A stretch of DNA of 64,000 nt from an uncultured Anaerolineae bacterium (GTDB lineage Bacteria; Chloroflexota; Anaerolineae; Fen-1058). This document shows, piece by piece, positions 4,778-39,867 of this stretch. The notes beneath the pieces were generated by a model. The model made no database searches and was not told the DNA's origin. It saw only the letters and a program-made list of their open reading frames with translations. Both the position numbers and the translations under genes were made by a program. The stretch lies in contig CAZYXV010000019.1 of assembly GCA_964651475.1 (NCBI GenBank), positions 11,837 to 75,836 on the forward strand. Direction: 5' to 3'. Every line of letters starts with the position of its first letter. Within the stretch, counting starts at the first letter, position 1.

Positions 4778-4789
4778 CTTGACCTCCCA

Positions 4790-4820: not shown

Positions 4821-4835
4821 TATTAACCGTCACCT

Positions 4836-16727: not shown

Positions 16728-17618
16728 TCAAGGTTGCACCACTAGGGCGTTTCTGGCCAAAAAAGCGCCGTCAAACAAAATCGGCACTGGTTTGCTGCGC
16801 CGCCCATCCGTTTGAATGTGTAGATGGGGACGCCAGCTCTTGCCCGAGTTGCCCACCTTGGCCAGCGGATGGCCAACCTCGACCCGGTCCCCCACCTCCA
16901 CCACCACGCTCCCCTTGAGCAAATGCCCTAACAAAATCCGAATGTCGCCGCATTGCAGCACCACGCGGTTCATGGCCCTGCTGGCCATAAACAACTTGTT
17001 CACGGGAGAATCGGGAATGACATTCATGACCTCGACCACTTGTCCCTCACAAGGACTATAGACAGTCGCCCCGTAGATTACATAGTCGTCCACCTCCGAG
17101 GCGGCAAACCCATTGCTATGTCTTCCCCAGCCATTCAACGCTTCGATATCCACAGCGTACGTCGTCGAGTCGCTCATGAGGTGGCCGTTGAGCAGCGGGT
17201 GGCTGCCCCCATCGGCGATATAATAGATGCCGCCTTTTAGAGGGAAGGCAAGAGAAACAGGCTCACCTTCGTACCTGTACCCCCACAGGATACTCAGATC
17301 GAAAAAGATCAACACAGCCGCAATCGCCAGGCTAATGCCTGTGAGCAGCCAGCCGCCCGCGCTTTCGTGCCAAAAAGGTCGCGGCCTCACCCGCCAGTAA
17401 GCGGCGCGCGCCACGATTACAAACACTGCCACGAGAACGTACCTCAGCACGTAGCCGAGCATGGACCAGGTGCCGACCATAAAGCGCTGCATCACCACCG
17501 CCCCGCACACGCCGGCGCGCAGCAGCCAATCCACCTTGCGCTGGTCCCGGTCGAACCACAACCAGGCCATCAATCCAAGCGGAATCAGCAAATCAGCAAT
17601 GACCGCATCAGATAACAT
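16728..17618 (-). CDS. Membrane-bound M23 (LytM-type) metallopeptidase
   Basis: Four N-terminal TM helices; C-terminal HPLAKVGNSGKSWRPHLHIQ matches the M23 GNSG-x-S-x-GPHLHF motif. Confidence 0.75.
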   Translation of the reverse strand: MLSDAVIADLLIPLGLMAWLWFDRDQRKVDWLLRAGVCGAVVMQRFMVGTWSMLGYVLRYVLVAVFVIVARAAYWRVRPRPFWHESAGGWLLTGISLAIAAVLIFFDLSILWGYRYEGEPVSLAFPLKGGIYYIADGGSHPLLNGHLMSDSTTYAVDIEALNGWGRHSNGFAASEVDDYVIYGATVYSPCEGQVVEVMNVIPDSPVNKLFMASRAMNRVVLQCGDIRILLGHLLKGSVVVEVGDRVEVGHPLAKVGNSGKSWRPHLHIQTDGRRSKPVPILFDGAFLARNALVVQP

Positions 17619-17706
17619 TTATCCTCACCACTATGCTGCGTTCATTGCCTGAGCTTACCAGAAAATTCAACTTTTGACTAGCCGGCTGGAGAGGGCGTCG
17701 GCCCAC

Positions 17707-17737
17707 CTTCCTGGAAGCTCGGAGCTTCCAGGAAGGT
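17707..17737. repeat. 31-bp perfect palindrome CCTTCCTGGAAGCTC-G-GAGCTTCCAGGAAGG (copy 1)
   Basis: Seen directly; near-identical copy at 25578-25608; sits in the divergent intergenic region upstream of the giant membrane-protein gene. Confidence 0.6.
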
Positions 17738-17814
17738 AAATCCGCTCATTTTGTGTTATACTAGCCTCAGCCCAATCGCGGCGCGCAAGCCCATATCCAA
17801 ATGACCGAGGAGAT

Positions 17815-20800
17815 ATGCACTGTCCAGCTTGTGACCAGCCTGATTTTGATCCAACTGCGCCTTGCCCTCAATGCCAATTCAGCGGCGACCCGGCCCTGGT
17901 GGAGGAACTGGCCCACGTGGACTGGGTGCTGGATCAGATAGGGGGCTGGCCCGTGTTCAACGAGGCCGACCGGCAATCTATCCGCCAGCATTACGCCGCG
18001 CGCCAGCGTGAGCTTGAAATCAACCTGGGACTGCGCCTGCCCCCCTTCACCGATGAACAAGCCGCCGCCGCGTGGCCGGAACTTGTTCAGCGCGAGGCGC
18101 TGCTCCAATACCTGGCCGAATGGCTGGAGGAAGGCTCGCTTCAACCGCCGGCGGCGCAAACACTCGTTGAACAGGTCAAGCGTCAAATCAAAGACCTGCT
18201 CGAACAACTCGAGGGGCGCGCTCGCCCCGCCTTGCATCAAACCGATTTTGGGCGACTGGACCTGATTCGCTTTCTTTTGGAAGCGGTTGACCATCTGAGC
18301 CAGAAAGATGGCTTTGCCACGCCAGAGGCGCACGCATTGGTCCGCAGCCGGCTAGAGGCCCAGCAAGAACACCTTGAAATTAACCTGGGGCTGCGTCCCG
18401 CGCCAGCGCCCGAACCCCAGCCGGCGCCGCCCGAGCCCGAACCTGCGCCGCCCGCGCCGCCGCCCGCCCCGCCCGCCGCGCCGCCCCTTCCCTTCCGCGA
18501 TAGGCTGTTGCGCACGCTGCTTTCCGTGCGCACGCTGCAAGCGCTGCTCTTTTTGGGCATCTTTTTGACCTTTTCGGCGGCGCTCTCGTTTGTGGCCTGG
18601 GGATGGCGCGACTTTTCGGCCCCGCTGCGCGTGGCCATCCCCACCGGCTTTACGGCTCTCTTTTTCGCGATGGGTTGGTACGTCCGCACGCGGACGCCTC
18701 TGTATCGCTCGGGCATCGCGCTCAGCGCGATTGCATCGCTGCTCATTCCCATAGACTTTTACACGCTTTACGCCAACCTGAACATCTCGGCCGATTATGG
18801 GCCATCGTTCTGGCTGCTGACCTCGCTGGCCTGCCTGGCCGCCTACATTGTGACCACGCTGATTATCCAGAACCCGCTTTTCGGCTACCTGGTGGGCGTG
18901 GCCGCCGGCAGCACGGTGCTGGCCCTCATCCAGGTGGCGCACCAGGCTCTTGGCTTCTCGCTCGATTGGCGCACGGCGGGGCTATCGGCGCTGGCGCTGT
19001 GTTTCACCGTGCTATCGGCGCGGCGCTCGTCGCCCCGCCTGCCGCGCGTGTTCGCCGACCCGCTCCGCGCGCTGGCCCTGCTGGCGATGGGCGTGTTGAT
19101 GCCGCTGAGCTTTGGCTGGCGCTACATTGGCCGCAGCGCGTACGACACACTCCATTATGCCATGACAATCAACTGGTGGGTGGGCGGGTTCATCTTTGGA
19201 TGGGGGGCGGTGTACCACCGCAGCCGCAGCCTGGGGATACTGGCGGCAATGACGCTGCCCATCGCCACGTATATGGCCCAGGCCGCGCTCTTTGACTGGC
19301 GCGAGATTAATCCCGCGTGGCACGCGTTTGGATGGGCCTGCCTCGTGCCGCTTTATTTCGTCGTCGGCCATAGATTGCTGGCCCGTAAAGAGGACACTGT
19401 TCTGTATGGGCACGGGCGGACGGCAACGGGATGGGGCGCGGCGCTGCTCATCGCCGCGGCTTTGTGGTCCCTCACCGAGTTTAGCAGCGGCGCTGCGGCG
19501 GCCTGCAGCCACGCGGTCCTGGCCGGATCGGTGGTTTTGGCAACGCGATTGTGGCGGCGTCCCGCGTATCTTTACGGCGCGTCGCTTTTATCGTTTTCGG
19601 CCCTCACCTTTGCCCTCACCGAGTTGAACCTGAACCTGTCTCAACTCACGCCCGGCTGGGCCGCGCTTGCCATCGCGCACATGCTGATTGCCATTCGCCT
19701 CCGAGACGCCTCGGCGCAAGGGCAGGCCGGCGCGCCCTCTTTTTTTGCCACGCCGCTCGTGACGGCTGCCTACGCCCTGGCTGCCCTGGCAATCGCGCAG
19801 GCGCTCGCGCCTTACGATGGCGACAGTGTGGCGTATGTGTTGGGCAACTGGCTGGGGCTGGCGGCCTGGGGCGCGTGGCTGGCGCACACAGGACAGCCCG
19901 GTTTTGCCGCCTCCCCCCCTTCGCGCTCCACGTTTTTTTCACGCGTGCTATATGATTTTAGACGCTCCCGCTTTCATTGGTTCACGGCCTTGCCCCTGCC
20001 CGTGTGGCTGTGGGTCTTGTTTTCCAATCGCGGGCCGCTGGATTCCAGCTTTCCAATCGCGCTGGCCGTTTTAGCCTGGGGGCTGGGGGCGCTCAGTTAC
20101 CGGCTCGAACGGGTCGAGAGCGCGTATGGCCTGCCGTGGTACCTGATGGAATTGCTCGTCAGCATCGCCGCGCCGCTGGCAGCCTGGCTCGTCGCGCCGG
20201 AGGGTTTCACGCCGGCGTTGTGCTTGCTGGCGGTTGGCCTGCTTTACTTTGCGGACGCCGCCGCCAACCGGCAAACGATCGAGCTGTTGCCGGGCGGATT
20301 GGTGACGGCCTGGGGGCTGGAACGCTTGCTGGACAAGCTGCGCGTTTCTTTTGACGCCACAACCCTCATCCTGGCGCTGCTCGTGGCCGCGTACATTCTG
20401 GGCGCGCTGTGGATCGAGCGCAAGAAATCGCCCGTCTTTACCCATCGCTTCTTGATTCCGCTTTACCTGTCAGCCCACTTGATCAGCCTGGCCGTGCTGT
20501 GGCGGATTTACGTCCATCCCATCAACGACGTCTTGCGCGATATTGCATGGACGGACGAGATGCGCGCGTGGGGCGCGGCCGGCCAGATCGTGCTGGGCAT
20601 CGTTTACGGCCTGTACGCCTGGGGCATTTACAAAGAGCACTGGGCGCACGCGGCGGCGTGGCTGCTCATGGGCGGCGGGGGATTCGTGGCGATTGCCTAT
20701 AGCCAGGGGCGCGGCTCGTCGGCGGCCAAAGGCGCGCTGGCTGTGATCGCCTTTATCCTGGCCGAGCGCGCGCTGCACTGGCTCCGCGGGCGTCCCCTCC

Positions 20801-23694
20801 TCCACCGGACCAGGCGCACTGAAAGACGATGGCAGGCGATTTTCAGGCTGGCGTGGCGGCTGTATCGTCGTCCGCTGCTGGCAAGCGGGTGGATCGCTTC
20901 CGCCGGCGTTATCGGGCTGGCGCTGGTGCGCAACCTGTGGCTCTTGGGCGGGGGACGTATCCAGCAAACCTGGGCGGCGATTGGCCTGGCGCTGATCACG
21001 GGCCTGTACGCTCTTTCGGCGCGGCTGTTCCGGCAGGCGCGCTTTGTATGGATGGCGGCGGTGCTCGTCTTTGCGCCGTGGACGATCTTGACCAACCTGG
21101 GCTGGTTCGTTTTGCACAAGCCCACCACGCCGGGTTTCGCGCTCAGTTGGGTCGTGCTGGCGTGGGCGCTCTTTTTAGTCGGCCTGCTCGTGCAGCGCGC
21201 CACCCGTCCTTCGGCAAGCTCAGGACACCACCGCATCCACACAGGGGCGTATGCCCTGCCGCTCAGGACCGTGGCGCACGTCTTGCTGCCTCTTTCGCTC
21301 TTGTGGGGCATTGCCGACGTGAACACCAGCCGGATAACGTTCGCCCTGGCGATTGGGTTTTATACGCTGGCGGCCATACTTGATTACGTTGAAAGGGAAC
21401 CGGATCGGGCGGGGCAGGTTGTAAACCGGACGAAATTCCTTTACCCGGCGTTGGGCCTGATTCCCGTGTGGTGCGTTTACGTGTTGCGCTGGCTGCTGCC
21501 TGCGGCGCGCCACGAACATTACGGCCTGATGCTCCTGGTGTTTGGCCCGCTCGGAGTAGCCGCCGGCCAATCCCTCGAACGCTTTATCCTCGCCAGGAAA
21601 TCGAGCCTTCCAAATGTCCGCCAGCTTGCCGGCGGCTATGCCCTGCCGGCTTATCTCACAGGCTATATCTCGCTCATCGTCGGCACGATGCTGGTAGCGC
21701 ACCAGCCAGCGCTCCTGGCGCTGACGCTGCTCTACGATGCGCTGCTCGCGCTGGTTTCCGCCCGCATCTTCAGGCATCCACTATGGGTCTATCCGGCGGT
21801 CGCCCTGACGCCGCTCTCGCTCCTGATCGCGCTGAACCAGGCCGGCGTGGCCGGCAATCGTCATGGGTGGTGGTTGATCGGGCTGGGCGCGGTGTACCTG
21901 GGCCTGACGTGGGCGCTGCGCCGGCTCAAATCAGGCGCGTACAGCACGGCCACGCTGGCAAGCGGCTTTGCGCTGATTGCTTTAGGCTTGCCGCCCTCGA
22001 GCCAGGATAAAGACGGCGCACTGTGGGGCTACGGCGGCGCGGCGCTGCTGTACGCCGTCACCGCGTTTTGGCTGCGCCAGCCCTTGCTGTTGACCCCCGC
22101 CTGCGCGCTGGCCATCGTGCCTTACGCGATCGTGATTCAACGCTCGCCCCTCGCGCCGGACTATTACGGATTGGCGCTGTTTCCCGGCGCAGCGGCGGCG
22201 CTGGCGCTGGGTTGGCGGCTCGACGCCGGCTGGCGAGATTTTCCGTGGGGCCATCCGCCTAAATGGGGATTGGCGCTGGGCGAGCGTTTGCTGAATTGGT
22301 GGGCGCTGCCGCTCTACGCGCTGGGCTTTGGCCTGACAGCGGCCAGCCCCTTGTTCACACACTCCCGCGCAGGTCTAACGGCCCTCAACCTGGCGCTGAT
22401 GATGCCGCTGTTTGGATGGGCTATCTATCGCTTCCGGCTGCGCGGCTGGCTCCTGGCGCTGGCCGCGGCGGGACACCTGGCCGCGCTGTACTTTCTTAAA
22501 GAGTTGGGCTGGTGGCGCTATCCGCCGTATGCCTGGGCCAGATTCTTGCCGGTCACGCTGGCGGCGGCGGGAGCTGGCATGCTCATCGAATGGCGGCGCG
22601 AGGAAGGCTCGCCGCTTCACCCGGCGCGCCTCCTGGCGGGATGGTCGCGCCCGCTGTACGGCCTGGCGCTGCTCGACGTTATCGTGAGCCAACTGGCAAG
22701 CCTGGGCGGCACGAGCGATGGGGCGCTCGTCACCCTGACGCACGCGCTGCTAATCGCCGCGCTGGCCTCGTTTTGGATATCCGGCTCGCTGCCTTTTCTC
22801 AGCACGGCGTTGGGCATTGTAGCATTGCTGCAATGGCTTTTTACCCTGCGCGGCCTAATGGAAGGATTGCCGGTGGCGCTGGCGCAATTGGCGCTGGCGT
22901 ATGGATTGGTCGGCTACGGGTTGGCGTTCGCGCGCAAGCGGCCCGGCGCTGCCAGCCCCCGGCTCTGGATTTGGGAGACGCCCCTGATACAATCGGGCCT
23001 GTGGTTATCTTTTGCCATCCTGGTAATCACAGCCATATTTGGCATTGACCTGGTAGGGTGGACCCTCCGCGCCATGCTTGGTTTTTCTTTCCGAGACATT
23101 GTCGAACTAGAAACCGTGCGAATGATAGTTGGCGTGCTGGCCTTGTTAGGGCTGCTCTACGTGGGCGCGGCCTTTACGTATCGCCGCGTGCGGCTGGGAT
23201 ACGCGGCGATTGGGATGCTGTTGGCCGCCTGGATCACGCACGCCTTTTACGTCCAGCAGTGGGATGGCGCGGCGCACGTGCAGTGGTACGCCGTGCCGGC
23301 GGGACTGTACCTGGCTGGCGTGGCTTTTGTGGAATGGCAGCGCGGCAACAAGACCTTTTCTCGGTGGCTCGATTACGCGGCGCTGGCGTTGATGATGAGC
23401 TCGCTCTTTTGGCAGACGCTGCTCTTTGGCTGGCGCTACGCCCTCATGCTGGGCGCGGAGGGCTTTGCGTCTTTTTGGTGGGGCAGCGCCCGGCGGCTGC
23501 GCCGCTTTCTATACGCCGGCATGCTGGGCGTGGTGCTGGCGACTGTGGCGCAATTGATCAACTCGCTGCAATCCATCAACCAATGGATCGTCTTTGGGCT
23601 GATTGGACTGCTGGCGATTGCGGCCGCCGTGCTGATCGAGCGCAAGCTGGAAGAAATCAAGGCGTGGCTAGAAGTGTTGGAGACGTGGGAGTGA
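17815..23694 (+). CDS. Giant (1959 aa) polytopic integral membrane protein with N-terminal zinc ribbon, helical/Pro-rich linker and roughly 50 predicted TM helices; function unknown
   Basis: MHCPACDQPDFDPTAPCPQCQF zinc ribbon; PAPEPQPAPPEPEPAPPAPPPAPPAAPP linker; remainder dominated by hydrophobic Leu/Ala/Trp-rich helices. Confidence 0.6.
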   Translation: MHCPACDQPDFDPTAPCPQCQFSGDPALVEELAHVDWVLDQIGGWPVFNEADRQSIRQHYAARQRELEINLGLRLPPFTDEQAAAAWPELVQREALLQYLAEWLEEGSLQPPAAQTLVEQVKRQIKDLLEQLEGRARPALHQTDFGRLDLIRFLLEAVDHLSQKDGFATPEAHALVRSRLEAQQEHLEINLGLRPAPAPEPQPAPPEPEPAPPAPPPAPPAAPPLPFRDRLLRTLLSVRTLQALLFLGIFLTFSAALSFVAWGWRDFSAPLRVAIPTGFTALFFAMGWYVRTRTPLYRSGIALSAIASLLIPIDFYTLYANLNISADYGPSFWLLTSLACLAAYIVTTLIIQNPLFGYLVGVAAGSTVLALIQVAHQALGFSLDWRTAGLSALALCFTVLSARRSSPRLPRVFADPLRALALLAMGVLMPLSFGWRYIGRSAYDTLHYAMTINWWVGGFIFGWGAVYHRSRSLGILAAMTLPIATYMAQAALFDWREINPAWHAFGWACLVPLYFVVGHRLLARKEDTVLYGHGRTATGWGAALLIAAALWSLTEFSSGAAAACSHAVLAGSVVLATRLWRRPAYLYGASLLSFSALTFALTELNLNLSQLTPGWAALAIAHMLIAIRLRDASAQGQAGAPSFFATPLVTAAYALAALAIAQALAPYDGDSVAYVLGNWLGLAAWGAWLAHTGQPGFAASPPSRSTFFSRVLYDFRRSRFHWFTALPLPVWLWVLFSNRGPLDSSFPIALAVLAWGLGALSYRLERVESAYGLPWYLMELLVSIAAPLAAWLVAPEGFTPALCLLAVGLLYFADAAANRQTIELLPGGLVTAWGLERLLDKLRVSFDATTLILALLVAAYILGALWIERKKSPVFTHRFLIPLYLSAHLISLAVLWRIYVHPINDVLRDIAWTDEMRAWGAAGQIVLGIVYGLYAWGIYKEHWAHAAAWLLMGGGGFVAIAYSQGRGSSAAKGALAVIAFILAERALHWLRGRPLLHRTRRTERRWQAIFRLAWRLYRRPLLASGWIASAGVIGLALVRNLWLLGGGRIQQTWAAIGLALITGLYALSARLFRQARFVWMAAVLVFAPWTILTNLGWFVLHKPTTPGFALSWVVLAWALFLVGLLVQRATRPSASSGHHRIHTGAYALPLRTVAHVLLPLSLLWGIADVNTSRITFALAIGFYTLAAILDYVEREPDRAGQVVNRTKFLYPALGLIPVWCVYVLRWLLPAARHEHYGLMLLVFGPLGVAAGQSLERFILARKSSLPNVRQLAGGYALPAYLTGYISLIVGTMLVAHQPALLALTLLYDALLALVSARIFRHPLWVYPAVALTPLSLLIALNQAGVAGNRHGWWLIGLGAVYLGLTWALRRLKSGAYSTATLASGFALIALGLPPSSQDKDGALWGYGGAALLYAVTAFWLRQPLLLTPACALAIVPYAIVIQRSPLAPDYYGLALFPGAAAALALGWRLDAGWRDFPWGHPPKWGLALGERLLNWWALPLYALGFGLTAASPLFTHSRAGLTALNLALMMPLFGWAIYRFRLRGWLLALAAAGHLAALYFLKELGWWRYPPYAWARFLPVTLAAAGAGMLIEWRREEGSPLHPARLLAGWSRPLYGLALLDVIVSQLASLGGTSDGALVTLTHALLIAALASFWISGSLPFLSTALGIVALLQWLFTLRGLMEGLPVALAQLALAYGLVGYGLAFARKRPGAASPRLWIWETPLIQSGLWLSFAILVITAIFGIDLVGWTLRAMLGFSFRDIVELETVRMIVGVLALLGLLYVGAAFTYRRVRLGYAAIGMLLAAWITHAFYVQQWDGAAHVQWYAVPAGLYLAGVAFVEWQRGNKTFSRWLDYAALALMMSSLFWQTLLFGWRYALMLGAEGFASFWWGSARRLRRFLYAGMLGVVLATVAQLINSLQSINQWIVFGLIGLLAIAAAVLIERKLEEIKAWLEVLETWE

Positions 23695-23698
23695 GGCG

Positions 23699-25012
23699 AT
23701 GAAAATGGCAAACGGCCCCATGCCAACCTGGTTGAAGCAAGCGATTTTGGGCGCCGCTTTGCTCCTGGCGCTGCCGGGGCTGCCGGCGCTGGTGGGAACG
23801 TGCTGCGTGGCGTTGATGCTGGCGGCGGACGGGAGCCGCGAAGCGCCGAGTGTGGGCGTGGCCAGCCTGACGTTTGCGGCCGTGACGCTTGGAGCGGGCG
23901 GCGCGGTGGGCTGGCACGCGTTGCGCTCGCTGCGCGGCAAACCCTCCAGGCTGCTGCGCCTGCCGCCCGCCTGGGCACTGGCCGGGCTGTTCGGATTTTT
24001 CGTGGCCGTGGGGCTGCTTGTTTCCAGCGCCAACCTTGCCCCCGGATTCTTTTTCCCGCCCATCTTGTTGGTGGCCGCCAGCCTGCCGCCGCTGCTGGCC
24101 GTCTCGTGGTTTACCCCCATGCAGTCGCGGGGGTTCACACGCATGGAGGCAGATGGACTCACCTGGCGGCGCGGCGTGGTGGCTTTTGCCGGCGGCGCCA
24201 CGGTCAGCGTGGCGATTGCGCTCGTGCTGGAAACACTGCTGCCCGTGATCTTTATGGCGCTGATTTCCAACTTGTACGGCGCCGTCACCAAGAGCGTGCA
24301 GGTCCTGTTCGACGCGCTGGCCGGCCAGGAAATCGCCTCGGCCATCACCAGCCGCGGCTTTATATACGTTTTCGTGCAAATCGCCGTCGTCGCGCCGATG
24401 GCGGAAGAACTGGCCAAGCCGCTGGTCACGCTGCCGCTGGTGGGCCGCCTTTCGCGCCGAGACGCCTTTCTGGCGGCGGCCATGGCCGGGGCCGGATTTG
24501 CCGCGCTGGAAAATGTGATTTATGCCGGGCTGGGGTTCTATTTCTGGGCCGGCATCTTGATCGTGCGGGCGGTGGGCGGCGCGATTCACCCGCTGGGCGC
24601 GGGGCTGGTGGGCCTGGGCTGGCGCGACGTTTTGAGGGGCGAGCCGCGCGCCTGGCCCAGGTGGCTGGTCCGCTTTGGCGCGGCGGCCGGCATGCACGCG
24701 CTGTGGAACGGCGGCTCGCTGCTGGTCATCACGCTGGCCGGGGCGCGTTTTTTTGGCGAGCTGCCCCCCGAGATTGACGTGCTGGGGCTGTCGGCGGCGG
24801 GGACGACGCTGGCGTTACTGATCGTGCTGGGACTGGCCGCCCTGTGGATGGGGCGCGCCATCGCGCAGCGCTCCATGGCCGCCGCCCCCGAGCTTGCACC
24901 TACAGACATTGAATTTACGCTTTCGGATCGGGCCGCGGCGATTTGGGCGCTGGCCTGCCTGGCGGCGATTGTGCCGGCGGGAATCGCCGGCTTGCAGTTG
25001 TTGATGCGCTAA
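23699..25012 (+). CDS. PrsW-family (M82-like) intramembrane protease homolog
   Basis: Multi-TM protein with EExxK (MAEELAKP) and HxxxN (MHALWNGG) motifs characteristic of PrsW-like proteases; 4-bp gap from the upstream gene. Confidence 0.5.
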   Translation: MKMANGPMPTWLKQAILGAALLLALPGLPALVGTCCVALMLAADGSREAPSVGVASLTFAAVTLGAGGAVGWHALRSLRGKPSRLLRLPPAWALAGLFGFFVAVGLLVSSANLAPGFFFPPILLVAASLPPLLAVSWFTPMQSRGFTRMEADGLTWRRGVVAFAGGATVSVAIALVLETLLPVIFMALISNLYGAVTKSVQVLFDALAGQEIASAITSRGFIYVFVQIAVVAPMAEELAKPLVTLPLVGRLSRRDAFLAAAMAGAGFAALENVIYAGLGFYFWAGILIVRAVGGAIHPLGAGLVGLGWRDVLRGEPRAWPRWLVRFGAAAGMHALWNGGSLLVITLAGARFFGELPPEIDVLGLSAAGTTLALLIVLGLAALWMGRAIAQRSMAAAPELAPTDIEFTLSDRAAAIWALACLAAIVPAGIAGLQLLMR

Positions 25013-25014
25013 AG

Positions 25015-25569
25015 ATGAAGCAGTTAGCTAGTTTTCTCAAGCGACCCAACTTTTGGATAGCGGCCATTCTAATCGTGGCCAATCTCTATGCCTGGGGAAA
25101 AATGCTGTCATCCAGGGCAGCGGCTTATACCGTCGAGCCGATCCGCGACCCCGAGATCGAGACGCTGCTGGAATACATTCGTTCCGGCGACCATTCAGGC
25201 GAAAGCTGGCAGGTCACGCTCACCCAGTTGGAAGCCGAGCAAACCATCACGTGGTACCTGGAACGCTACCCACAAATTCCTTTCGAGTCTCCCCGCGTGC
25301 GCATCACGCCGGATTACGTGGGGGGCGAAGGCGACGCCACGCTGGCCGGGCTGCGTGTGCACGTGGGCGGCAAGGCGCGCATCACGCTGGCGAACGGCCT
25401 GCCGGTGGTCAACATCCTCGAATTGAGCATCCCCCTCCCCGGCCCCATCCGCCAGGCCATCGAAGACGAAATCCAGACACAATTGCAGCGCGCCGAGCTG
25501 CTGCCGGTGCGCTTTATCTCGGCGGAATGGTTCGACGGCCAGGTGATCGTAAAGGGAACGATACGCTGA
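25015..25569 (+). CDS. Small membrane-anchored hypothetical protein
   Basis: MKQLASFLKRPNFWIAAILIVANLYAWG N-terminal TM helix; immediately follows the PrsW-like gene. Confidence 0.4.
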   Translation: MKQLASFLKRPNFWIAAILIVANLYAWGKMLSSRAAAYTVEPIRDPEIETLLEYIRSGDHSGESWQVTLTQLEAEQTITWYLERYPQIPFESPRVRITPDYVGGEGDATLAGLRVHVGGKARITLANGLPVVNILELSIPLPGPIRQAIEDEIQTQLQRAELLPVRFISAEWFDGQVIVKGTIR

Positions 25570-25574: not shown

Positions 25575-27326
25575 TTACCTTCCCGGAAGCTCTGAGCTTC
25601 CGGGAAGGTTTGCGCCGATTTCGCTCTGCAAGATGCAGCGCAATATGCGGCGCAAGATGGCCACGGCGCAGGCATACGAAGCATCCATCCCAAAATACAA
25701 CAGGCTCTTGGAAAGCAGCTCTTGCCGGCGGCTGTAGGGCGTATCCGACGCATAGTGCAAAAAGCCAATGTCGTAGCGCGCCAGCAAAAACAGGTTGACG
25801 ATCTCGTTGACGGGATGGCGCTTGGGCGCCAGGTCCTCGTACACCGCGCTGAGATAAGGCCCGGCCTCCATCTCGATATCGGTATAGCCCTCGCTATAGA
25901 ACACGTGCATAAACTCGCGGTTTTGCAGGAACGTGCCGCGCACGGTGACGGCCTTTTGATTGTCGAACACAGTGCCGTAGCGCAAATACGGCGCGACGTC
26001 GTCGGCGGCAAAGCAATTGCGGAACAGGTACGTGTTTTGCGAGTGCTGGTCGTACGCCACGTTGGGAATCATCACGTCGCCCACGCGCCCGTTGAGCGTG
26101 GCTGCCTTGCCCATCACGTACACCCCCGCCAGCTCCGAGGCAAAAGAAGCCACCTCGGTGAGAATGTTGTACGCCGCCGCGCCCAACGGATAATCAATGT
26201 TGACAATCACGGCGCGGCTGTCTTGCAGGCGCTCTAGGCCGGGCATGTGCAAGCGCGCGTCAAAGCGGGCCGGGTCGAGCCGGTTCAACTCGATCACCTG
26301 GGCATCCACATCCAGGTACGATTGCGCGCCGGCGTACCACACGCCGTGCTCGCGCTCAAACTCCAGGCAGGCGCGTAGTTCGTCCTGGCGGCCGGGCCGG
26401 CGCAAGTGCTGGCGCAGCAAGTAATAGAGCAGGTTATCCAGGCGGCCCGGCGCGCCTTCGCTCTGCGCCGCACTGACCTCGGCGCGCAGGTTTTCGGGGT
26501 CGTGCTCGTCCAGCGCGGCGATCAGATCGTCCTGCCGCTGGCGAGCGTATCCCACCAGCAAATTCACCAGGCTGTGAGGGTTGCTGGAAACAAAATACAC
26601 AGGCCGTTCGCACACGTCCACGCCGGGCGCCTGATCCAGCACGGCGTCCCACCAGCCGCGCGTGGCCTTGCGGTAATCGTTGGCCGAGCCGGCCAGCAGG
26701 CGCACCGCCATACGCTTGGGCGCGCGGGCAATGGCGCGCAAGGTGTCCCACAACGCCTCTTTCCACAGCGCCGCCAGCCGCGCAAAATCGCGCTCAGAAA
26801 GCCCCAACTCGTTTCTCACCAGCACGTGATCCTCGGCAGTGAGCGCGGCCTTTTCCAGGGTGGCCCTGGCCTGAGAATTGACCAGGCGCGTGTGCAGCTT
26901 GTTCCACTCGATTTCAAACGTGACCAGTTGCGGAATCAGATCGTCAATATCCGACACGCTGGCAATGTACGCCGCCAGCCGGTCTTGCCCATCAAAGAAC
27001 ATCCGGCGGCGGCGGGCCGGCGAGGCCGCCGCTTGCCACTGTTCCACGTCGGCGTAACCGCGCCGTGCAAACACCTCGCGCGATTGCCCCAGCAGCACCA
27101 GCCGCGTTTGAGCCAGGCAAGCCGGCAAACGCTGCACAACATAGATGAACGCGCCAACGTCCGGCTCGGGTTCGTCCGCCCCGGCGTGCAAGCTGGAATT
27201 CATCGAGCGGTGCGTTTCTTCCAGGCTGCGCACCTGTACCTCGCCGCTGGAGCGCAGCAGCGAATAGTAAGTGCGGATATACAGGTCAATCGAATCGCTG
27301 GTTGGCGAAGGCACGCGACGGTCCAT
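25575..27326 (-). CDS. Hypothetical protein with C-terminal nucleoside-phosphorylase-like (PNP/UDP family) domain
   Basis: C-terminal ...GYTDIEMEAGPYLSAVYE resembles the (V/I)EME(S/A)AA motif of the PNP_UDP_1 family; N-terminal ~350 aa has no recognised motif. Confidence 0.35.
   Translation of the reverse strand: MDRRVPSPTSDSIDLYIRTYYSLLRSSGEVQVRSLEETHRSMNSSLHAGADEPEPDVGAFIYVVQRLPACLAQTRLVLLGQSREVFARRGYADVEQWQAAASPARRRRMFFDGQDRLAAYIASVSDIDDLIPQLVTFEIEWNKLHTRLVNSQARATLEKAALTAEDHVLVRNELGLSERDFARLAALWKEALWDTLRAIARAPKRMAVRLLAGSANDYRKATRGWWDAVLDQAPGVDVCERPVYFVSSNPHSLVNLLVGYARQRQDDLIAALDEHDPENLRAEVSAAQSEGAPGRLDNLLYYLLRQHLRRPGRQDELRACLEFEREHGVWYAGAQSYLDVDAQVIELNRLDPARFDARLHMPGLERLQDSRAVIVNIDYPLGAAAYNILTEVASFASELAGVYVMGKAATLNGRVGDVMIPNVAYDQHSQNTYLFRNCFAADDVAPYLRYGTVFDNQKAVTVRGTFLQNREFMHVFYSEGYTDIEMEAGPYLSAVYEDLAPKRHPVNEIVNLFLLARYDIGFLHYASDTPYSRRQELLSKSLLYFGMDASYACAVAILRRILRCILQSEIGANLPGSSELPGR
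25578..25608. repeat. 31-bp palindrome CCTTCCCGGAAGCTC-T-GAGCTTCCGGGAAGG (copy 2); likely bidirectional terminator between convergent genes
   Basis: Differs from the copy at 17707 by one symmetric pair (T/C, A/G) plus the centre base; lies between stop codons at 25569(+) and 25575(-). Confidence 0.6.
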
Positions 27327-29702: not shown

Positions 29703-30238
29703 GGTGGGGGTGGACGCGTAAAAGCGGTAACGCGACAACGGCGGGAACGCTATAAAAAATACAACGGCTCGCCCGCCACCCGCAGGCCAGCCGCTAAAAA
29801 CCAATATTCAGTTGTAGTATGCTCGCTGGCGTTTATGGGGAGAGCTTACTCTCCGCTGTGAGCGCCGCTCTATGGCCGCTCCTATACCCTATTATTTGCC
29901 AGACGATGTGTGAGGGTAATTTATTCATTATTGGTCAGTAGACACCTCCCAAGGCCCCTAACGACAAGACTAGACCAGTAAAATCTTGCTTTTCACCTCC
30001 CTTCTGCCTTATATCTGATATTAGCTTACCACATCCTGTGGCTGATGCGCTTGCACATTTCTCAGGGGTGGCTTAACTCAATCTTGTCCACATCTCACAG
30101 CAAACTCACAGGTTGAAAAACGGATAAACGGGTTGCACATTCTGCCAGTAGTTGTGATACAATTACATCTGGGTGATTTTCTCATTTATCTATCGCTATC
30201 CCTGTGGCTCGCTCACAAATATGAAACGAAAATAGACC

Positions 30239-31756
30239 GTGACACGAGAGCGCAAAACTCGATTGAATCCTAAAGATGTCCCGCCATTAGGGCTGTCTGC
30301 GTTCGAAAGCCTGCGTGCTGAAGACGAACCCTGGCTAGCCGAACGTGCTTACATTTTGCCGCCAGAGTTCGAACTTATGGCCGGGGCGCGCTCGATCATA
30401 GTCTATGGGCAGCCTGGTTCCGGGAAAACAGCGTTGCGCCGTGCGCTGGAATATCGCGCCCTGTCCTTGATTCCAGCTCGGCTAATCGTGCATTGGCGAC
30501 CGACCCTGCCTGCCGATGCGCTCACCACCGGGACCCTGGCTGCCCGGACGCAACTTGCACAAGCTATGGATGCGTGTGCAATTGCATTACTCAAACATCT
30601 GGCTGATTCCCCTGCGGCTTACGGCCAGGCGCCTGACTGGGCGCAGCAAACATTGACGTGGTTTATTCACCGTTATAGCAATGATTTGCCAGGACAAATT
30701 ACTTTTTTATCGGATAGAGCCAGAGGATCAAGTCAAGCCCTCGTTCGCCAGTTGGCGACACGCCCTAATCGCGAGATTTTGGCAGCGGACGCTCCGCTGG
30801 ATGCTGTTGTGGCACGTTTGACAGAGGCGCTGGGGACAATCGGGCTTGAAGGGATATGGGTGATGGCCGATAGCGTCGAAGGTTTGACCGAAATCGAGCC
30901 GGAGCGCTTAGCGTCCGCGCTAACCGCTTTTCTGTCCTGTCTGGCTTATTTCGAGCAATCGCCGCTTTTTTACAAGCTAACCTTGCCCATCGCGCTTCAA
31001 TCGCGCCTGAACACTTCGAGCAGCATCGTTCGCGGGCGCGTCTTTCTTCATCAGCTTGCATGGACAGCCGATCACCTGAAGCAAATTGTGGAACGACGAT
31101 TGGCTTTGGTAACAGGCAAAGATGATTTCAAACTTGGCGATATTTATTCTCCTTCCCCCTCCAAGCGCCAATCCGCACAAATAACAAAACGCCCCAAACG
31201 GCCCAAGATTAACCCGGTTCAGGCCTGGTTAGCCGGCTGCGGCGGCGCTGTGCCGCGTGGTTGGTTAAACTATGCCAGCCCACTTGCATCAGCCTGCCTT
31301 CAACTCAGGGCGCAACAACAAATTCGTTCCCTCACCTGCCAGGAATGGTTAGAGGCGCGCGGTCGCGTGCCATTGATGCTTTCGCTTGATCAACAAACAG
31401 GCCTGGTGCATATTGGCTGGCGTACAATTGACCGGCTTTCCCCTCTCGAACAGTCTGTGTTGCAATACCTGATGGCTAACCATGGCCGCATCTGCACCAA
31501 AGAAGAGCTGTACGAAAATGCGTACCTGGCCAGTGAGCAGGCCGGCCTGAAAGCGAGTCAGCTCTCAGAAACACAGCCCAAACTGCCGGAACGACCAAGC
31601 CTCAAGAGCAAAGGCGGTTATAATAGCGTAATTGATACAGTGCTATGGCGATTGCGCGAGGCCATCGAGCCGGATATGGACAATCCCGTTTTCCTGCTAA
31701 CCAGCAAGGGGCAAGGCGTTGTGTTGCATCCGCAGCCCTTTGTAAAGGACGTGTGA
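30239..31756 (+). CDS. P-loop NTPase fused to a C-terminal OmpR/PhoB-type winged-helix DNA-binding domain (putative ATP-dependent transcriptional regulator)
   Basis: Walker A GQPGSGKTA, Walker B IWVMADSVEG; C-term ...SVLQYLMANHGRICTKEELYENAY...VIDTVLWRLREAIEPDMDNPVFLLTSKGQGVVL matches the Trans_reg_C pattern; GTG start. Confidence 0.55.
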   Translation: MTRERKTRLNPKDVPPLGLSAFESLRAEDEPWLAERAYILPPEFELMAGARSIIVYGQPGSGKTALRRALEYRALSLIPARLIVHWRPTLPADALTTGTLAARTQLAQAMDACAIALLKHLADSPAAYGQAPDWAQQTLTWFIHRYSNDLPGQITFLSDRARGSSQALVRQLATRPNREILAADAPLDAVVARLTEALGTIGLEGIWVMADSVEGLTEIEPERLASALTAFLSCLAYFEQSPLFYKLTLPIALQSRLNTSSSIVRGRVFLHQLAWTADHLKQIVERRLALVTGKDDFKLGDIYSPSPSKRQSAQITKRPKRPKINPVQAWLAGCGGAVPRGWLNYASPLASACLQLRAQQQIRSLTCQEWLEARGRVPLMLSLDQQTGLVHIGWRTIDRLSPLEQSVLQYLMANHGRICTKEELYENAYLASEQAGLKASQLSETQPKLPERPSLKSKGGYNSVIDTVLWRLREAIEPDMDNPVFLLTSKGQGVVLHPQPFVKDV

Positions 31757-31918
31757 GGTTGCTGAGAGATTGCAGCAAGATTACAACAAGATTACAGTTG
31801 TAAATCAATGGGGAAAACGAGTGTATTATACAAGTACACCTCCTTTTATCGGGGTTAAACGTCATGACGATCAAACAAGCACATCTAGACTGTTGACCAT
31901 GGGGAAAGAGTGTATTGA

Positions 31919-33136
31919 ATGTTGGCTGGCAAGGAGCAGTATGAACAGGAACTGGAACCCCTTTTTTATACGTGGCTGAAAACAGTTGGGCTTGACTTTA
32001 ACCCCTTTGCCATTCTGGATGCCGGCCAGGATCCCGATATTCCTGCTTATCTCGTTGGTCACACCGACTTTGAAAAACTGTGGGGTGATTGGCCGGCGTT
32101 TATATTTGCGCCGGCTGGCGGCGGCAAGACGGCTTTTCGCGTCCGGCTGGCGCGCGCTTGCCGGGTGGGTGAAGATGGCCGGCGGGTGTTCCCCATTGTT
32201 TATCATCGCTTGCCAGCGCCCGGCGAAATTGCCGAGGAGCATGGGCAGGCCATTCACCTAAAAAACATTGCCCGGCAAGCCGCCCAGGAACTCTTGTTTT
32301 GGCTGGCGTATCACCCCCTAAAATTGACCGAATTAGATAATGCCGCACTTGCCGCCATACGCCTCGTTTTCGACGCACATCTACCTTCACAACTCGATGA
32401 TTACCTGGATCGCCTGCGCTACTTTGGCGACCTGTCTCCCCTGGCGCACGAATTTGACCGCACGACCAGCTATCTCATCAACCCTCCCGGCCCTCAAGAT
32501 GTGCGACTATTTTGCGAACGCATGGCCCAGAGCCTGCCGAAAACTGCGTCCGGATTATTCCACGGTCAACAATTTGAACATCTAATCAACCTTCTCCTGA
32601 ATCAATTACATTTCGACGCGATTTATCTTTTGATTGACGGAGTAGATGCCTACCCGGAAACCGCTTCTGATTCCAAAGCCGCCTTGCCCATCCTCGATTG
32701 GCTGCTACGTCAAACACCGCAGTGGGCCGGCCAACACATCTTTGCCAAGTTTTTCTTGCCCGCCGAACTTGAAAATCCACTTCAACAACAAATGCCCACC
32801 CTATTGACAACGCCTTCAAAAGTTGCTATTATAGAATGGTCAGTTGCAACGTTAGTAGAGGTTATCCAAAGGCGGTTGAGCGTCGCCAGCCAGGGAATGT
32901 ATGATAGCCTGGATGCTCTCAGCAGCCCAGGTTTGCGCGGCGCAGAAAAGAAACTGGCGCGCACCGTCTGGCCGCGCGTCCCGCGCCAGATGTTAATCTT
33001 GACCGAACGATTGCTGGTCGAACACGTCCAACGCGCCGGCCCGCACGGCAAGCTTGAACCTCAAGATTTGGAACTGGCTTGCAACTGGTACGCCGGACAA
33101 AAAAAAGCCACCTTGCCGCTCGCAAGCTCTCCCTAG
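31919..33136 (+). CDS. P-loop NTPase, paralog of the upstream gene but without a DNA-binding domain
   Basis: Walker A APAGGGKTA, Walker B IYLLIDGVDA; N-terminal ...GLDFNPFAILDAGQD; collinear similarity to 30239..31756 through the NTPase core. Confidence 0.45.
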   Translation: MLAGKEQYEQELEPLFYTWLKTVGLDFNPFAILDAGQDPDIPAYLVGHTDFEKLWGDWPAFIFAPAGGGKTAFRVRLARACRVGEDGRRVFPIVYHRLPAPGEIAEEHGQAIHLKNIARQAAQELLFWLAYHPLKLTELDNAALAAIRLVFDAHLPSQLDDYLDRLRYFGDLSPLAHEFDRTTSYLINPPGPQDVRLFCERMAQSLPKTASGLFHGQQFEHLINLLLNQLHFDAIYLLIDGVDAYPETASDSKAALPILDWLLRQTPQWAGQHIFAKFFLPAELENPLQQQMPTLLTTPSKVAIIEWSVATLVEVIQRRLSVASQGMYDSLDALSSPGLRGAEKKLARTVWPRVPRQMLILTERLLVEHVQRAGPHGKLEPQDLELACNWYAGQKKATLPLASSP

Positions 33137-37901: not shown

Positions 37902-37902
37902 A

Positions 37903-39845: not shown

Positions 39846-39867
39846 CAGCATCAACTCCGGCTCTAAA

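What the first reader, a model, noticed from the sequence alone, without database searches (positions are those of the whole stretch)
17815..25569. Operon of a 1959-aa zinc-ribbon polytopic membrane protein, a PrsW-like intramembrane protease and a small membrane protein, bracketed by two copies of a 31-bp palindrome
The giant protein has a cytoplasmic Zn ribbon (CPAC...CPQC), a helical/Pro-rich linker and then about 50 TM helices with no recognisable transporter or enzyme motifs, which is extremely unusual in size. It is followed 4 bp later by a PrsW-family protease homolog (EExxK, HxxxN) and a small single-TM protein. The near-identical palindrome CCTTCC(T/C)GGAAGCTC-N-GAGCTTCC(A/G)GGAAGG occurs just upstream (17707-17737) and just downstream (25578-25608) of this three-gene unit, delimiting it.
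Basis: seen in the sequence. Interest (0 to 1): 0.6.

Follow-up and report, generated by a model that had tools for sequence, protein, structure and literature searches.

The report
Giant repeat membrane protein with PrsW protease
A real, widely conserved Chloroflexota operon encodes a 1959-residue protein with more than 50 membrane-spanning helices, mostly tandem four-helix repeats, next to its own membrane protease; its function is unknown, and the flanking palindromes are copies of a common genome-wide repeat.

Summary
ORFs 17815-23694 (1959 aa), 23699-25012 (437 aa, PrsW family) and 25015-25569 (184 aa) are tightly coupled, and two near-identical palindromes flank them. The giant ORF is not a mis-assembly. 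More than 200 full-length homologues (50-66 % identity) occur in Anaerolineae/Chloroflexota assemblies, some on 1-4.5 Mb contigs.

Its parts, in order, are:
- a Cys4 zinc ribbon;
- about 170 aa of helical hairpins;
- a Pro-rich linker;
- a DUF2157-like membrane block;
- roughly 12 tandem ~120-aa (four-helix) repeats;
- a C-terminal domain matching NCBIfam SCO7613_CTERM.

The giant gene has a PrsW gene in the same gene cluster in 9 of 10 other genomes examined (next gene in 7, one and three genes away in 2), including a clade only ~30 % identical. The small protein is clade-specific.

The palindrome is a 33-bp REP-like element with at least 118 copies in Caldilineaceae/Anaerolineae genomes, and at least 42 in one MAG. 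It is absent from orthologous cassettes, so it does not define this unit.

Function is untested. My best inference is a membrane-embedded sensor or scaffold that is the substrate or partner of its PrsW protease. No fold or literature match was found. It is an interesting orphan system, but the mechanism is weakly supported.

The parts
17705..17737 (.). Upstream copy of a 33-bp REP-like perfect palindrome (ACCTTCCTGGAAGCTC-G-GAGCTTCCAGGAAGGT). It sits in the divergent intergenic region between the M23 peptidase gene (16728-17618, -) and the giant gene.
   Evidence: 16-nt arms, 100 % complementary. (15-bp stem, 3-nt loop, z = -5.5). The family is dispersed in other genomes.
17815..23694 (+). Giant polytopic membrane protein gene, 1959 aa, about 50-57 membrane helices.
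   Evidence: More than 200 full-length homologues. The identical protein is found on independent Logan contigs. Helix counts.
17815..17889 (+). aa 1-25: Cys4 zinc ribbon (CPAC-x10-CPQC), inferred cytoplasmic.
   Evidence: C3, C6, C17 and C20 are invariant in alignment A4. Weak zf-ChsH2 / Zn_ribbon matches.
17890..18399 (+). aa 26-195: soluble helical domain of six helices, with two segments ending in the motif LEINLGLR.
   Evidence: Model pLDDT 75-88 over 1-195 and helices H26-190. Sequence. Relative P0338 has about 520 aa of similar helical repeats instead.
18400..18510 (+). aa 196-232: Pro-rich low-complexity linker.
   Evidence: Sequence. pLDDT < 50 over 198-226.
18511..19284 (+). aa 233-490: first membrane block, DUF2157-like, not part of the internal repeats.
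   Evidence: PF09925 is matched by 6 of 8 orthologues, best E 3.4e-8, at about aa 233-340. No repeat hits fall below residue 492.
19285..23133 (+). aa 491-1773: array of tandem ~120-aa (about four-helix) membrane repeats.
   Evidence: Profile self-comparison: 132 of 703 segment pairs score >= 25, against 0 of 703 with reversed templates. Offsets cluster at multiples of ~120 aa. Coverage runs 492-1947. Relatives carry recent tandem duplications.
23134..23679 (+). aa 1774-1955: SCO7613_CTERM domain, about six helices. The protein ends in a conserved acidic tail, ...ETWE.
   Evidence: NCBIfam NF047321, 54.4 bits against a cut-off of 45. The domain always lies at the extreme C-terminus in 517 representative proteins. 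W-[DE] ends in distant relatives.
23699..25012 (+). PrsW-family intramembrane metalloprotease, 437 aa, about 10-12 helices. It has the catalytic motifs and an extra N-terminal 4-helix extension.
   Evidence: Pfam PF13367, 53.2 bits against a cut-off of 23.5. Motifs conserved. 33 % identical to the PrsW of the distant cassette in L134, including the N-terminal extension.
25015..25569 (+). 184-aa protein: an N-terminal hydrophobic helix (signal anchor or signal peptide) followed by a highly conserved ~150-aa alpha/beta domain, inferred extracytoplasmic.
   Evidence: 562 homologues at 67-79 % identity with no Pfam family. Model pLDDT 69. No significant structural neighbour.
25577..25609 (.). Downstream copy of the REP-like palindrome (ACCTTCCCGGAAGCTC-T-GAGCTTCCGGGAAGGT), between the convergent small gene and the DUF6909 gene. 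It overlaps the last 11 codons of the DUF6909 ORF.
   Evidence: DUF6909 ORF is 25575-27326 (-).

Best explanation
Shown:
- The region is a genuine, vertically conserved Chloroflexota (Anaerolineae) operon.
- Its first gene encodes a giant integral membrane protein of the uncharacterised SCO7613_CTERM superfamily.
- That protein has a zinc ribbon and helical domain, joined by a Pro-rich linker to a DUF2157-like membrane block. About 12 tandem four-helix repeats follow, and then a conserved six-helix C-terminal domain.
- Both termini are inferred to be cytoplasmic. Almost nothing protrudes from the membrane.
- The second gene encodes an apparently active PrsW-type intramembrane metalloprotease. 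It is the evolutionarily conserved partner of the giant.
- The third gene encodes a clade-specific small protein with an N-terminal hydrophobic helix and a globular domain inferred to lie outside the cell.

Inferred mechanism:
- The giant is a large-area, membrane-embedded sensor or scaffold that acts together with PrsW.
- PrsW cleaves the giant, or the small protein docked on it, when the membrane or envelope is perturbed. This would work like PrsW site-1 cleavage of RsiW in Bacillus.
- The cleavage would release or remodel the tethered zinc-ribbon domain.

The two flanking palindromes are copies of a 33-bp REP-like element scattered through related genomes. The downstream copy occupies the usual hairpin position at the operon's end. 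They are not a specific part of the system.

The confidence given applies to the whole statement. The identity, architecture and giant-PrsW linkage are near certain. The proteolytic sensing mechanism is the weak part.
For: Real and conserved:
- 212 or more homologues, the 120 best nearly all 1900-2000 aa at 49-66 % identity.
- The identical protein occurs on independent assemblies.
- Homologues lie on 1.2-4.5 Mb contigs.

Architecture:
- SCO7613_CTERM above its cut-off.
- The C-terminal domain is always terminal, in 517 representative proteins up to 2776 aa long.
- DUF2157-like block.
- Cys4 invariant.
- Confident soluble N-terminal domain and a disordered Pro-rich linker.
- Internal repeats well above a reversed-sequence control, with offsets at multiples of ~120 aa.
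- Recent tandem duplications in relatives.

Partnership with PrsW:
- The order giant, PrsW, small protein recurs with unrelated flanks in the window and in L004/L005, L006, L129, L130, L131 and L132.
- A PrsW gene is also present in the ~30 %-identical clade: immediately downstream in L133, one gene away in L134, three genes away in L135.
- The PrsW of the distant cassette is orthologue-like at 33 % identity, including the N-terminal extension.
- Intergenic gaps are 4 bp and 2 bp.
- The catalytic motifs are conserved.

Analogy:
- PrsW is the site-1 protease of the membrane-tethered zinc-binding anti-sigma factor RsiW. PrsW versions linked to Zn-ribbon and other signalling domains were predicted to be signalling peptidases (PMC3482391).
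- DUF2157 was unified with the LiaI-LiaF-TM envelope-stress domain (bioRxiv 10.1101/2020.09.24.301986).

Palindromes:
-.
Against: - No experiment or solved structure bears on any of the three proteins.
- The N-terminal domain matches no DNA-binding, sigma or anti-sigma family.
- No regulator gene is conserved next to the cassette.
- One genome (L128) has the giant and the small protein with no adjacent PrsW.
- L133 has the giant and PrsW without the small protein.
- A signalling role does not by itself explain why more than 50 helices are needed.
- The membrane part of the model is of low confidence (pTM 0.38), so nothing can be said about a pore, cavity or blade shape.
- The DUF2157 match is absent for the window protein itself at E <= 0.1 and is below Pfam's cut-off in P0001.
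Confidence: 0.4

Rival explanations
1. Structural membrane scaffold. The repeat array is a passive, extended intramembrane platform that organises membrane domains, septa or the cell-envelope machinery of filamentous Anaerolineae. PrsW would be only a maturation or quality-control protease for this very large substrate.
For: - Tandem repeats whose number varies between relatives (1700-2776 aa), which is typical of structural or ruler proteins.
- Very short loops and no catalytic motif.
- Near-universal presence in Anaerolineae assemblies.
- The window is rich in envelope genes: M23 peptidase, PBPs, MurJ, Ddl and a crescentin-like coiled coil.
Against: - The flanking envelope genes are not conserved in other genomes.
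- The conserved zinc ribbon and helical domain on a flexible linker look more like an interaction or signalling module than a brick.
- There are no localisation data.
Confidence: 0.25
2. Transporter, flippase or polymerase. The giant moves or assembles an envelope polymer or lipid-linked precursor, like Wzy, O-antigen ligase, GT-C or MurJ-type proteins. The small extracytoplasmic protein would be an accessory factor.
For: - It is polytopic with many invariant polar, aromatic, Pro and Gly residues inside helices.
- In some genomes glycosyltransferase or ABC-2 genes lie nearby.
- A weak, non-significant resemblance of the small protein to lipid-binding folds such as CETP, ToxS and Bet v 1.
Against: - No match to any transporter or glycosyltransferase family in Pfam or NCBIfam, or in the PDB by sequence or fold.
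- The neighbouring glycosyltransferases are not conserved.
- A twelve-fold repeat array is not the architecture of known flippases or polymerases.
- The fold hits have TM-scores <= 0.28 and E > 0.01.
Confidence: 0.1
3. PrsW-dependent toxin or conflict system. PrsW would process and release a toxin or effector, as proposed for polymorphic toxin systems, and the cassette would be a mobile unit bounded by the palindromes.
For: - PrsW domains are used for toxin processing in some bacteria (PMC3482391).
- Identical repeats flank the unit in this genome.
Against: - This PrsW has no fused toxin domain.
- No PADLOC match for any of the three proteins.
- The cassette is single, vertically conserved and shares the GC content of its surroundings.
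- The palindromes are generic, absent from orthologous cassettes and lack conserved flanks.
- PMC3482391 itself separates signalling-type PrsW versions from toxin-type ones.
Confidence: 0.03
4. The palindromes are functional boundaries of this operon: an operator or attenuator upstream and a terminator downstream.
For: - Both copies form a very stable 15-bp hairpin.
- The downstream copy sits exactly between convergent genes, where L004 and L006 have an ordinary terminator palindrome.
- In other genomes the family favours convergent (30) and tandem (39) intergenic positions over divergent ones (6).
- The upstream copy ends about 17 bp before a possible extended -10 (TGT-TATACT, 17754-17762; read).
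Against: - There is no U-tract. The terminator scan does not call either copy.
- The element is not conserved at orthologous cassettes.
- It is dispersed in large numbers with unrelated flanks.
- So any terminator or insulator effect would be generic, not specific to this system.
Confidence: 0.3

Closest known systems
NCBIfam NF047321, 'SCO7613 C-terminal domain-containing membrane protein' (prototype Streptomyces coelicolor SCO7613)
   Same: The last ~185 residues (1774-1955) match the model above its cut-off. Distant giant relatives match it too. The domain always lies at the extreme C-terminus.
   Different: SCO7613 itself is reported as an 81.9-kDa protein and was proposed, on weak similarity, to be a PHA synthase (PMC8313934). 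The window protein is 2.5 times larger. It has a zinc ribbon, a DUF2157-like block and about 12 repeats, and it is paired with PrsW. Nothing here supports PHA synthase activity. Whether actinobacterial members are linked to PrsW was not testable with these tools.
PrsW (YpdC) of Bacillus subtilis, site-1 protease of the anti-sigma-W factor RsiW; Pfam PF13367
   Same: It is a family member by Pfam score and by the conserved EExxK, FxxxE, H and HxxxN motifs. It is a polytopic intramembrane metalloprotease encoded next to a membrane protein that carries a cytoplasmic zinc-binding N-terminus.
   Different: No sigma or anti-sigma genes are present. The candidate substrate is a protein with more than 50 helices, not a single-pass one. 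This PrsW has about 4 extra N-terminal and 2 extra C-terminal helices. The zinc site is a Cys4 ribbon, not a ZAS HxxxCxxC motif.
DUF2157 (PF09925) / LiaI-LiaF-TM domain, and the DUF2157-DUF4401-GDYXXLXY gene trio
   Same: The first membrane block is DUF2157-like in 6 of 8 orthologues. In L135 a full DUF2157-DUF4401-GDYXXLXY trio lies directly upstream of a giant relative and overlaps it. Both sets combine polytopic membrane proteins with a small protein that has an N-terminal helix and an outside domain.
   Different: The window protein itself does not reach the Pfam threshold. The small protein is not homologous to GDYXXLXY. DUF2157 proteins are about 300 aa long. None of these families has a known function.
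Piezo mechanosensitive channels (eukaryotes); comparison from general knowledge only
   Same: A very large polytopic protein built mostly from a tandem array of four-helix membrane units, followed by a distinct conserved C-terminal membrane module.
   Different: No sequence or fold match was obtained. No Piezo chain appears among the 50 best Foldseek hits listed, though only residues 1-1200 were modelled and at low confidence. There is no evidence for oligomerisation, a pore or mechanosensitivity. This is an architectural analogy, not membership.
REP (repetitive extragenic palindromic) elements
   Same: A short perfect palindrome, dispersed in tens of copies or more per genome, mostly intergenic and biased towards gene 3' ends. 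Arm changes are compensatory and flanks are unrelated.
   Different: This is a different sequence family, found in Caldilineaceae/Anaerolineae. Association with a RAYT-type transposase was not tested. The copy number in the window's own genome is unknown (2 copies in 64 kb).

Membership tests
PrsW intramembrane metalloprotease (Pfam PF13367) | Profile match above the curated gathering score | tested here: met
   53.2 bits against a cut-off of 23.5, E 3.6e-14, residues 160-342.
PrsW intramembrane metalloprotease (Pfam PF13367) | Conserved catalytic motifs (EExxK/R, FxxxE, H, HxxxN/D) within membrane helices | tested here: met
   AEELAK 235-240, FAALEN 267-272, H297 and HALWN 333-337 are all invariant in three orthologues. 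The four-motif description comes from PMC3482391.
PrsW intramembrane metalloprotease (Pfam PF13367) | Proteolytic activity on a membrane-anchored substrate | not testable with these tools
   Needs biochemistry.
SCO7613_CTERM superfamily (NCBIfam NF047321) | Profile match above the curated cut-off, located at the C-terminus of a polytopic protein | tested here: met
   54.4 bits against 45, residues 1774-1955 of 1959. The same position is seen in 517 representative proteins.
DUF2157 (PF09925) / LiaI-LiaF-TM | Profile match above the gathering score (32.4 bits) | tested here: inconclusive
   The window protein has no hit at E <= 0.1. P0001 scores 27.4 bits, below the cut-off. 6 of 8 orthologues match at E <= 1, best 3.4e-8.
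RsiW-type (ZAS) anti-sigma factor as PrsW substrate | HxxxCxxC zinc-binding anti-sigma domain, a single membrane helix, and an adjacent ECF sigma factor gene | tested here: not met
   The zinc site is CxxC-x10-CxxC. The protein has more than 50 helices. No sigma factor gene lies next to the cassette in any of 11 genomes.
PrsW-dependent polymorphic toxin system | PrsW domain fused to, or adjacent to, a variable toxin domain with an immunity gene | tested here: not met
   There is no extra domain on PrsW, no PADLOC hit, and the neighbours are conserved rather than polymorphic.
REP-like dispersed palindrome | Many dispersed copies per genome with unrelated flanks, mainly intergenic | tested here: met
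   At least 118 stretches, with at least 42 in MAG UBA9854 and the scan truncated. Flanks are not conserved. 75 of 94 classifiable copies are intergenic. The count in the window's own genome was not testable.
REP-like dispersed palindrome | Associated RAYT (IS200/IS605-like) transposase in the genome | not tested
Rho-independent (intrinsic) terminator | GC-rich hairpin followed by a U-tract | tested here: not met
   The hairpin is present, but the tails are UUUGCGCC and UAAAUCC, and neither copy is called by the terminator scan.
Piezo-like tandem four-helix-repeat mechanosensor | Structural similarity of the repeat units and the C-terminal pore module; trimeric assembly | tested here: inconclusive

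The most novel reading that the evidence does not exclude
The giant protein is a bacterial counterpart, by convergence, of blade-type membrane mechanosensors. An extended array of about 12-14 four-helix units would report membrane tension, curvature or thickness over a large area. Deformation would expose a cleavage site to the co-encoded PrsW protease, which frees the tethered zinc-ribbon/helical domain as the cytoplasmic signal. This would be a previously undescribed kind of envelope-stress sensor, specific to Chloroflexota and possibly Actinobacteria.
Probability: 0.12. Interest if true: 0.85.

Novelty: new variant of a known kind. Interest (0 to 1): 0.5.

Why it matters
Proteins with more than 50 membrane helices in one chain are very rare, and this one is a conserved, apparently core gene of a whole bacterial class.

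This work gives the family a concrete anatomy: a tethered zinc-ribbon domain, a DUF2157-like block, a four-helix repeat array that grows by tandem duplication, and the SCO7613_CTERM module. It also gives the family a conserved enzymatic partner, PrsW.

That turns an anonymous 'hypothetical protein' into a testable protease-substrate hypothesis. It links three orphan families (SCO7613_CTERM, DUF2157, PrsW) that annotation currently treats separately.

If PrsW does cleave the giant, it would extend regulated intramembrane proteolysis to a new type of substrate. It could also reveal how monoderm filamentous Chloroflexota sense membrane state.

The work also removes a false lead: the palindromes are an ordinary genome-wide repeat.

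Tried and rejected
- Mis-assembly or gene fusion of the giant ORF: rejected. Full-length homologues occur in over 100 clusters, on closed or megabase contigs, and the identical protein is on independent assemblies.
- Palindrome specific to the locus: rejected.
- Palindrome as a known RNA family: no Rfam hit anywhere in the window. No tRNAs either.
- Canonical intrinsic terminator: not called.
- Pfam, NCBIfam and PADLOC on all three proteins. Only PrsW and SCO7613_CTERM are significant. The DUF5959 hit of the small protein (E 0.07) was ignored.
- Sequence search of the PDB. Nothing for the N-terminal domain, the C-terminal domain or PrsW. The small protein's hits to antibody light-chain framework 3 (about 36 aa; best single-stretch E 1.6e-4) are a motif coincidence (…SGxxxTLTxLEAEQ…) that contradicts the predicted secondary structure, so they were rejected.
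- Fold search of the small-protein model. No hit with E <= 1e-3. The lipid-binding-like folds have TM <= 0.28 and were not accepted.
- Fold search of the giant 1-1200 model. Only alpha-solenoid/TPR proteins with TM <= 0.15, which is uninformative.
- Homology of the small protein to GDYXXLXY, or to the proteins that follow the giant in L134 and L135: none.
- tblastn of the C-terminal domain against plasmids: no match.
- SCO7613 as a PHA synthase (PMC8313934). That claim rests on a GASAG 'lipase box' in a polytopic membrane protein. Nothing here supports transferring it.
- A first blastp self-comparison script returned nothing for technical reasons. It was redone on split sequences.


Full report
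OBSERVATION

- The giant runs 17815-23694 (+), 1959 aa.
- PrsW runs 23699-25012 (+), 437 aa, starting 4 bp after the giant's stop.
- The small gene is best read from ATG 25015 to 25569 (184 aa), 2 bp after the PrsW stop. Independent gene calls on other assemblies of the same organism give the same three products.

The palindrome pattern occurs exactly twice in the 64-kb window, at 17706-17736 and 25578-25608, with none expected in shuffles. The perfect inverted repeat is in fact 33 bp, at 17705-17737 and 25577-25609. It has 16-nt arms, and a compensatory T:A to C:G change distinguishes the two copies.

THE GIANT ORF IS REAL

A search of 5.8 billion proteins gave at least 212 homologues. Of the 120 best, nearly all are 1900-2000 aa long and align over the whole query at 49-66 % identity. 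All named ones come from Anaerolineae/Chloroflexota MAGs. Some lie on 1.2, 1.9 and 4.5 Mb contigs. A 28-sequence alignment is collinear, with about 54 % mean column identity and many invariant W, Y, G, P, R, D and E residues. Mis-assembly or gene fusion is excluded.

ANATOMY OF THE GIANT

- Residues 1-25 form a Cys4 zinc ribbon. C3, C6, C17 and C20 are invariant in 8 orthologues.
- Residues 26-195 are a soluble six-helix domain, modelled with pLDDT 75-88. Two of its segments end in LEINLGLR.
- Residues 196-232 are a Pro-rich, disordered linker.
- From residue 233 to 1944 the chain is almost entirely membrane helices with short loops. Alignment-averaged hydropathy gives about 54 segments. The model has one helix per ~30 residues.
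- By the positive-inside rule the C-terminal tail is cytoplasmic, like the N-terminus. This is an inference.

1. Residues 1774-1955 match NCBIfam NF047321 (SCO7613_CTERM) at 54.4 bits against a cut-off of 45.
2. The first membrane block, about 233-340, matches Pfam DUF2157 in 6 of 8 orthologues (best E 3.4e-8). The window protein itself does not match at E <= 0.1.
3. Most of the membrane region is internally repeated.

The repeat evidence is as follows. All-against-all profile comparison of 150-residue segments gave 132 of 703 pairs scoring >= 25. The same comparison against reversed templates gave 0 of 703, with a maximum of 21.6. The offsets cluster at about 100, 218-240, 346-366, 496, 716-739 and 956 residues. 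These are multiples of ~120 residues, or about four helices. The repeats cover 492-1947 but not the DUF2157-like block.

Relatives show the process at work.
- P0010 carries a 50 %-identical duplication of residues 823-1139 at 1185-1496.
- P0320 and P0338 carry 42-55 %-identical tandem copies at offsets of 253-262 residues.

THE WIDER FAMILY

A profile of the last 270 residues found 517 cluster representatives (E <= 1e-3) among 1.84 billion proteins. The domain always sits at the extreme C-terminus, in proteins up to 2776 aa long.

Distant members keep the overall plan.
- P0334 has a zinc ribbon and a Pro-rich linker.
- P0338 replaces the ribbon with about 520 aa of helical repeats.
- P0334, P0338 and P0320 end in W-D, as the window protein ends in W-E.

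In L135 a stand-alone 211-aa SCO7613_CTERM protein is encoded directly after a giant relative. A DUF2157-DUF4401-GDYXXLXY trio lies directly before it.

PARTNERS

Gene 2 is a PrsW-family protease: PF13367 at 53.2 bits against a cut-off of 23.5. The EExxK, FxxxE, H and HxxxN motifs are invariant among orthologues. It also has extra N- and C-terminal helices.

The order giant, PrsW, ~180-aa protein recurs in seven genomes. These are the window's own organism plus L004/L005, L006, L129, L130, L131 and L132. The flanks are entirely different in each.

In a second clade only ~30 % identical, a PrsW gene is again present:
- immediately downstream of the giant in L133;
- one gene away in L134;
- three genes away in L135.

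The L134 PrsW is 33 % identical to the window's PrsW, including the N-terminal extension. One genome, L128, has the giant followed by the small protein with no adjacent PrsW. So the giant-PrsW pair is the deep core, and the small protein belongs to the window's clade.

The small protein has 562 homologues at 67-79 % identity and no Pfam family. That makes it more conserved than the giant. It has an N-terminal hydrophobic helix (signal anchor or signal peptide) and an alpha/beta domain modelled at pLDDT 69. No structural neighbour is significant.

THE PALINDROMES

The 24-specified-base core TTCCNGGAAGCTCNGAGCTTCCNGGAA is expected about 0.002 times by chance in 596 Gb. This estimate is my own arithmetic, 596e9 / 4^24.

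Nearly all copies are in Caldilineaceae/Anaerolineae MAGs:
- 42 stretches in UBA9854;
- 14 in Caldilinea sp. N1_Bin_METABAT__52_1;
- 12 in the Caldilineaceae MAG binchicken_co107_138;
- 10 in UBA3905.

Only the 33-bp palindrome is conserved. The flanks are unrelated, and the variable arm positions co-vary.

By position, 30 copies lie between convergent genes, 39 between tandem genes and 6 between divergent genes. A further 19 lie inside crude ORF calls, and 26 lie at locus edges and could not be classified.

No such element flanks the orthologous cassettes, allowing up to 4 substitutions in the 27-bp core. L004 and L006 have an ordinary A-tract/T-tract terminator palindrome after the small gene. 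L130 has its own palindrome family.

The hairpin is very stable (15-bp stem, z about -5), but it lacks a U-tract and is not called as a terminator.

The palindrome is therefore a REP-like genome-wide element. Flanking this operon is incidental, or at most reflects a generic 3'-end hairpin role.

MECHANISM

Shown: a conserved operon, the domain and repeat architecture, the intact protease motifs, and the conserved giant-PrsW linkage.

Inferred: the two act together. The known function of PrsW is site-1 cleavage of the membrane-tethered, zinc-binding anti-sigma factor RsiW. PrsW versions linked to Zn-ribbon domains were predicted to be signalling peptidases (PMC3482391). DUF2157 has been unified with the LiaI-LiaF-TM envelope-stress domain (bioRxiv 10.1101/2020.09.24.301986).

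The most economical model is that the repeat array is a large-area membrane sensor or scaffold. PrsW would cleave it, or the small protein, on perturbation. That would release or remodel the tethered zinc-ribbon domain.

Against this:
- no regulatory domain is recognised in the N-terminus;
- no regulator gene is conserved nearby;
- PrsW is not adjacent in L128;
- the membrane part of the model is too uncertain (pTM 0.38) to reveal a shape.

The rivals are a passive scaffold with PrsW as a maturation or quality-control protease, a transporter or polymerase, and a toxin system. They are weighed in their own section. The toxin reading is essentially excluded.

COMPARISON AND NOVELTY

By curated thresholds the proteins are members of PF13367 and NF047321. 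DUF2157 membership is inconclusive. RsiW-type and toxin-type PrsW systems fail their defining features.

Literature searches found no description of this cassette or of a function for SCO7613_CTERM, DUF2157, DUF4401 or GDYXXLXY proteins. The one exception is a weakly based PHA-synthase proposal for SCO7613 (PMC8313934).

I class it as a new variant of a known kind: a PrsW-type protease with a dedicated membrane partner, the partner being an unprecedented tandem four-helix-repeat protein. The Piezo-like reading is an analogy from general knowledge. It is not excluded and not supported.

VERDICT

This is a notable orphan system with a weak mechanism. Interest 0.5.

Noticed in passing
window 17705-17737 and 25577-25609; loci L007-L124: A 33-bp REP-like palindrome family, A(Y)CTTCCnGGAAGCTC-n-GAGCTTCCnGGAAG(R)T, is dispersed in Caldilineaceae/Anaerolineae MAGs. 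There are at least 118 stretches, at least 42 of them in UBA9854. The arm positions co-vary and the copies favour gene 3' ends. I found no description of it.
   Followed up: partly
window 25575-25609 (- strand): The last 11 codons (…LPGSSELPGR*) of the DUF6909 ORF (25575-27326, -) are encoded by the palindrome itself. The Pfam match ends 20 residues before the stop. The repeat insertion may therefore have replaced the gene's natural C-terminus and stop codon.
   Followed up: no
L135 3434-17338: In one Chloroflexota MAG the genes run in this order: DUF2157, DUF4401, GDYXXLXY, giant (2541 aa), stand-alone 211-aa SCO7613_CTERM protein, metallophosphatase, unknown, PrsW. The order links several orphan membrane-protein families in one cluster.
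   Followed up: partly
P0010 (also P0012, P0018, P0026, P0045; 2316-2339 aa): A sub-group of orthologues is about 370 aa longer. In P0010 the extra length is a tandem duplication of about three repeat units (residues 823-1139 copied at 1185-1496, 50 % identity). P0010 is the only member checked.
   Followed up: partly
window 30000-42000: A low-GC stretch (0.52 against ~0.62 elsewhere) encodes AAA_16/TPR STAND-type NTPases, an EAD7 effector-associated domain protein, a GNAT, a radical SAM enzyme and a NYN nuclease. It looks like a horizontally acquired conflict or defence island.
   Followed up: no
window 46028-48514 (-): An 828-aa coiled-coil protein gives crescentin-rod, tropomyosin-like matches and has a C-terminal HhH motif. 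It may be a cytoskeletal element in a filamentous bacterium. It lies next to a class A PBP with a Big_7 domain (42932-45928, -).
   Followed up: no
window 4789-4821: A perfect 15-nt-arm palindrome, AGAAACCGGGTTTTT-n3-AAAAACCCGGTTTCT, lies between two minus-strand genes. It has A and T tracts on both sides, so it looks like an ordinary bidirectional intrinsic terminator, unlike the REP-like element.
   Followed up: no
L130 507-535, 2427-2456, 2613-2642: Another Anaerolineae genome has its own short palindrome family, ACCCTAAAGGTCT…AGACCTTTAGGGT, with three copies in 22 kb. This suggests lineage-specific REP-like families are common in this class.
   Followed up: no
window 17754-17762: A possible extended -10 element (TGT-TATACT) lies about 53 bp upstream of the giant gene's ATG and 17 bp after the upstream palindrome. 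The consensus promoter scan did not call it because there is no good -35.
   Followed up: no
window 25015-25569, residues 57-94 of the product: The invariant stretch HSGETWEVTLTELEAEQTITWYL of the small protein gives a spurious profile match to antibody light-chain framework 3 (…GSGTDFTLTISSLQPED…YYC). This is a trap for automated annotation.
   Followed up: yes
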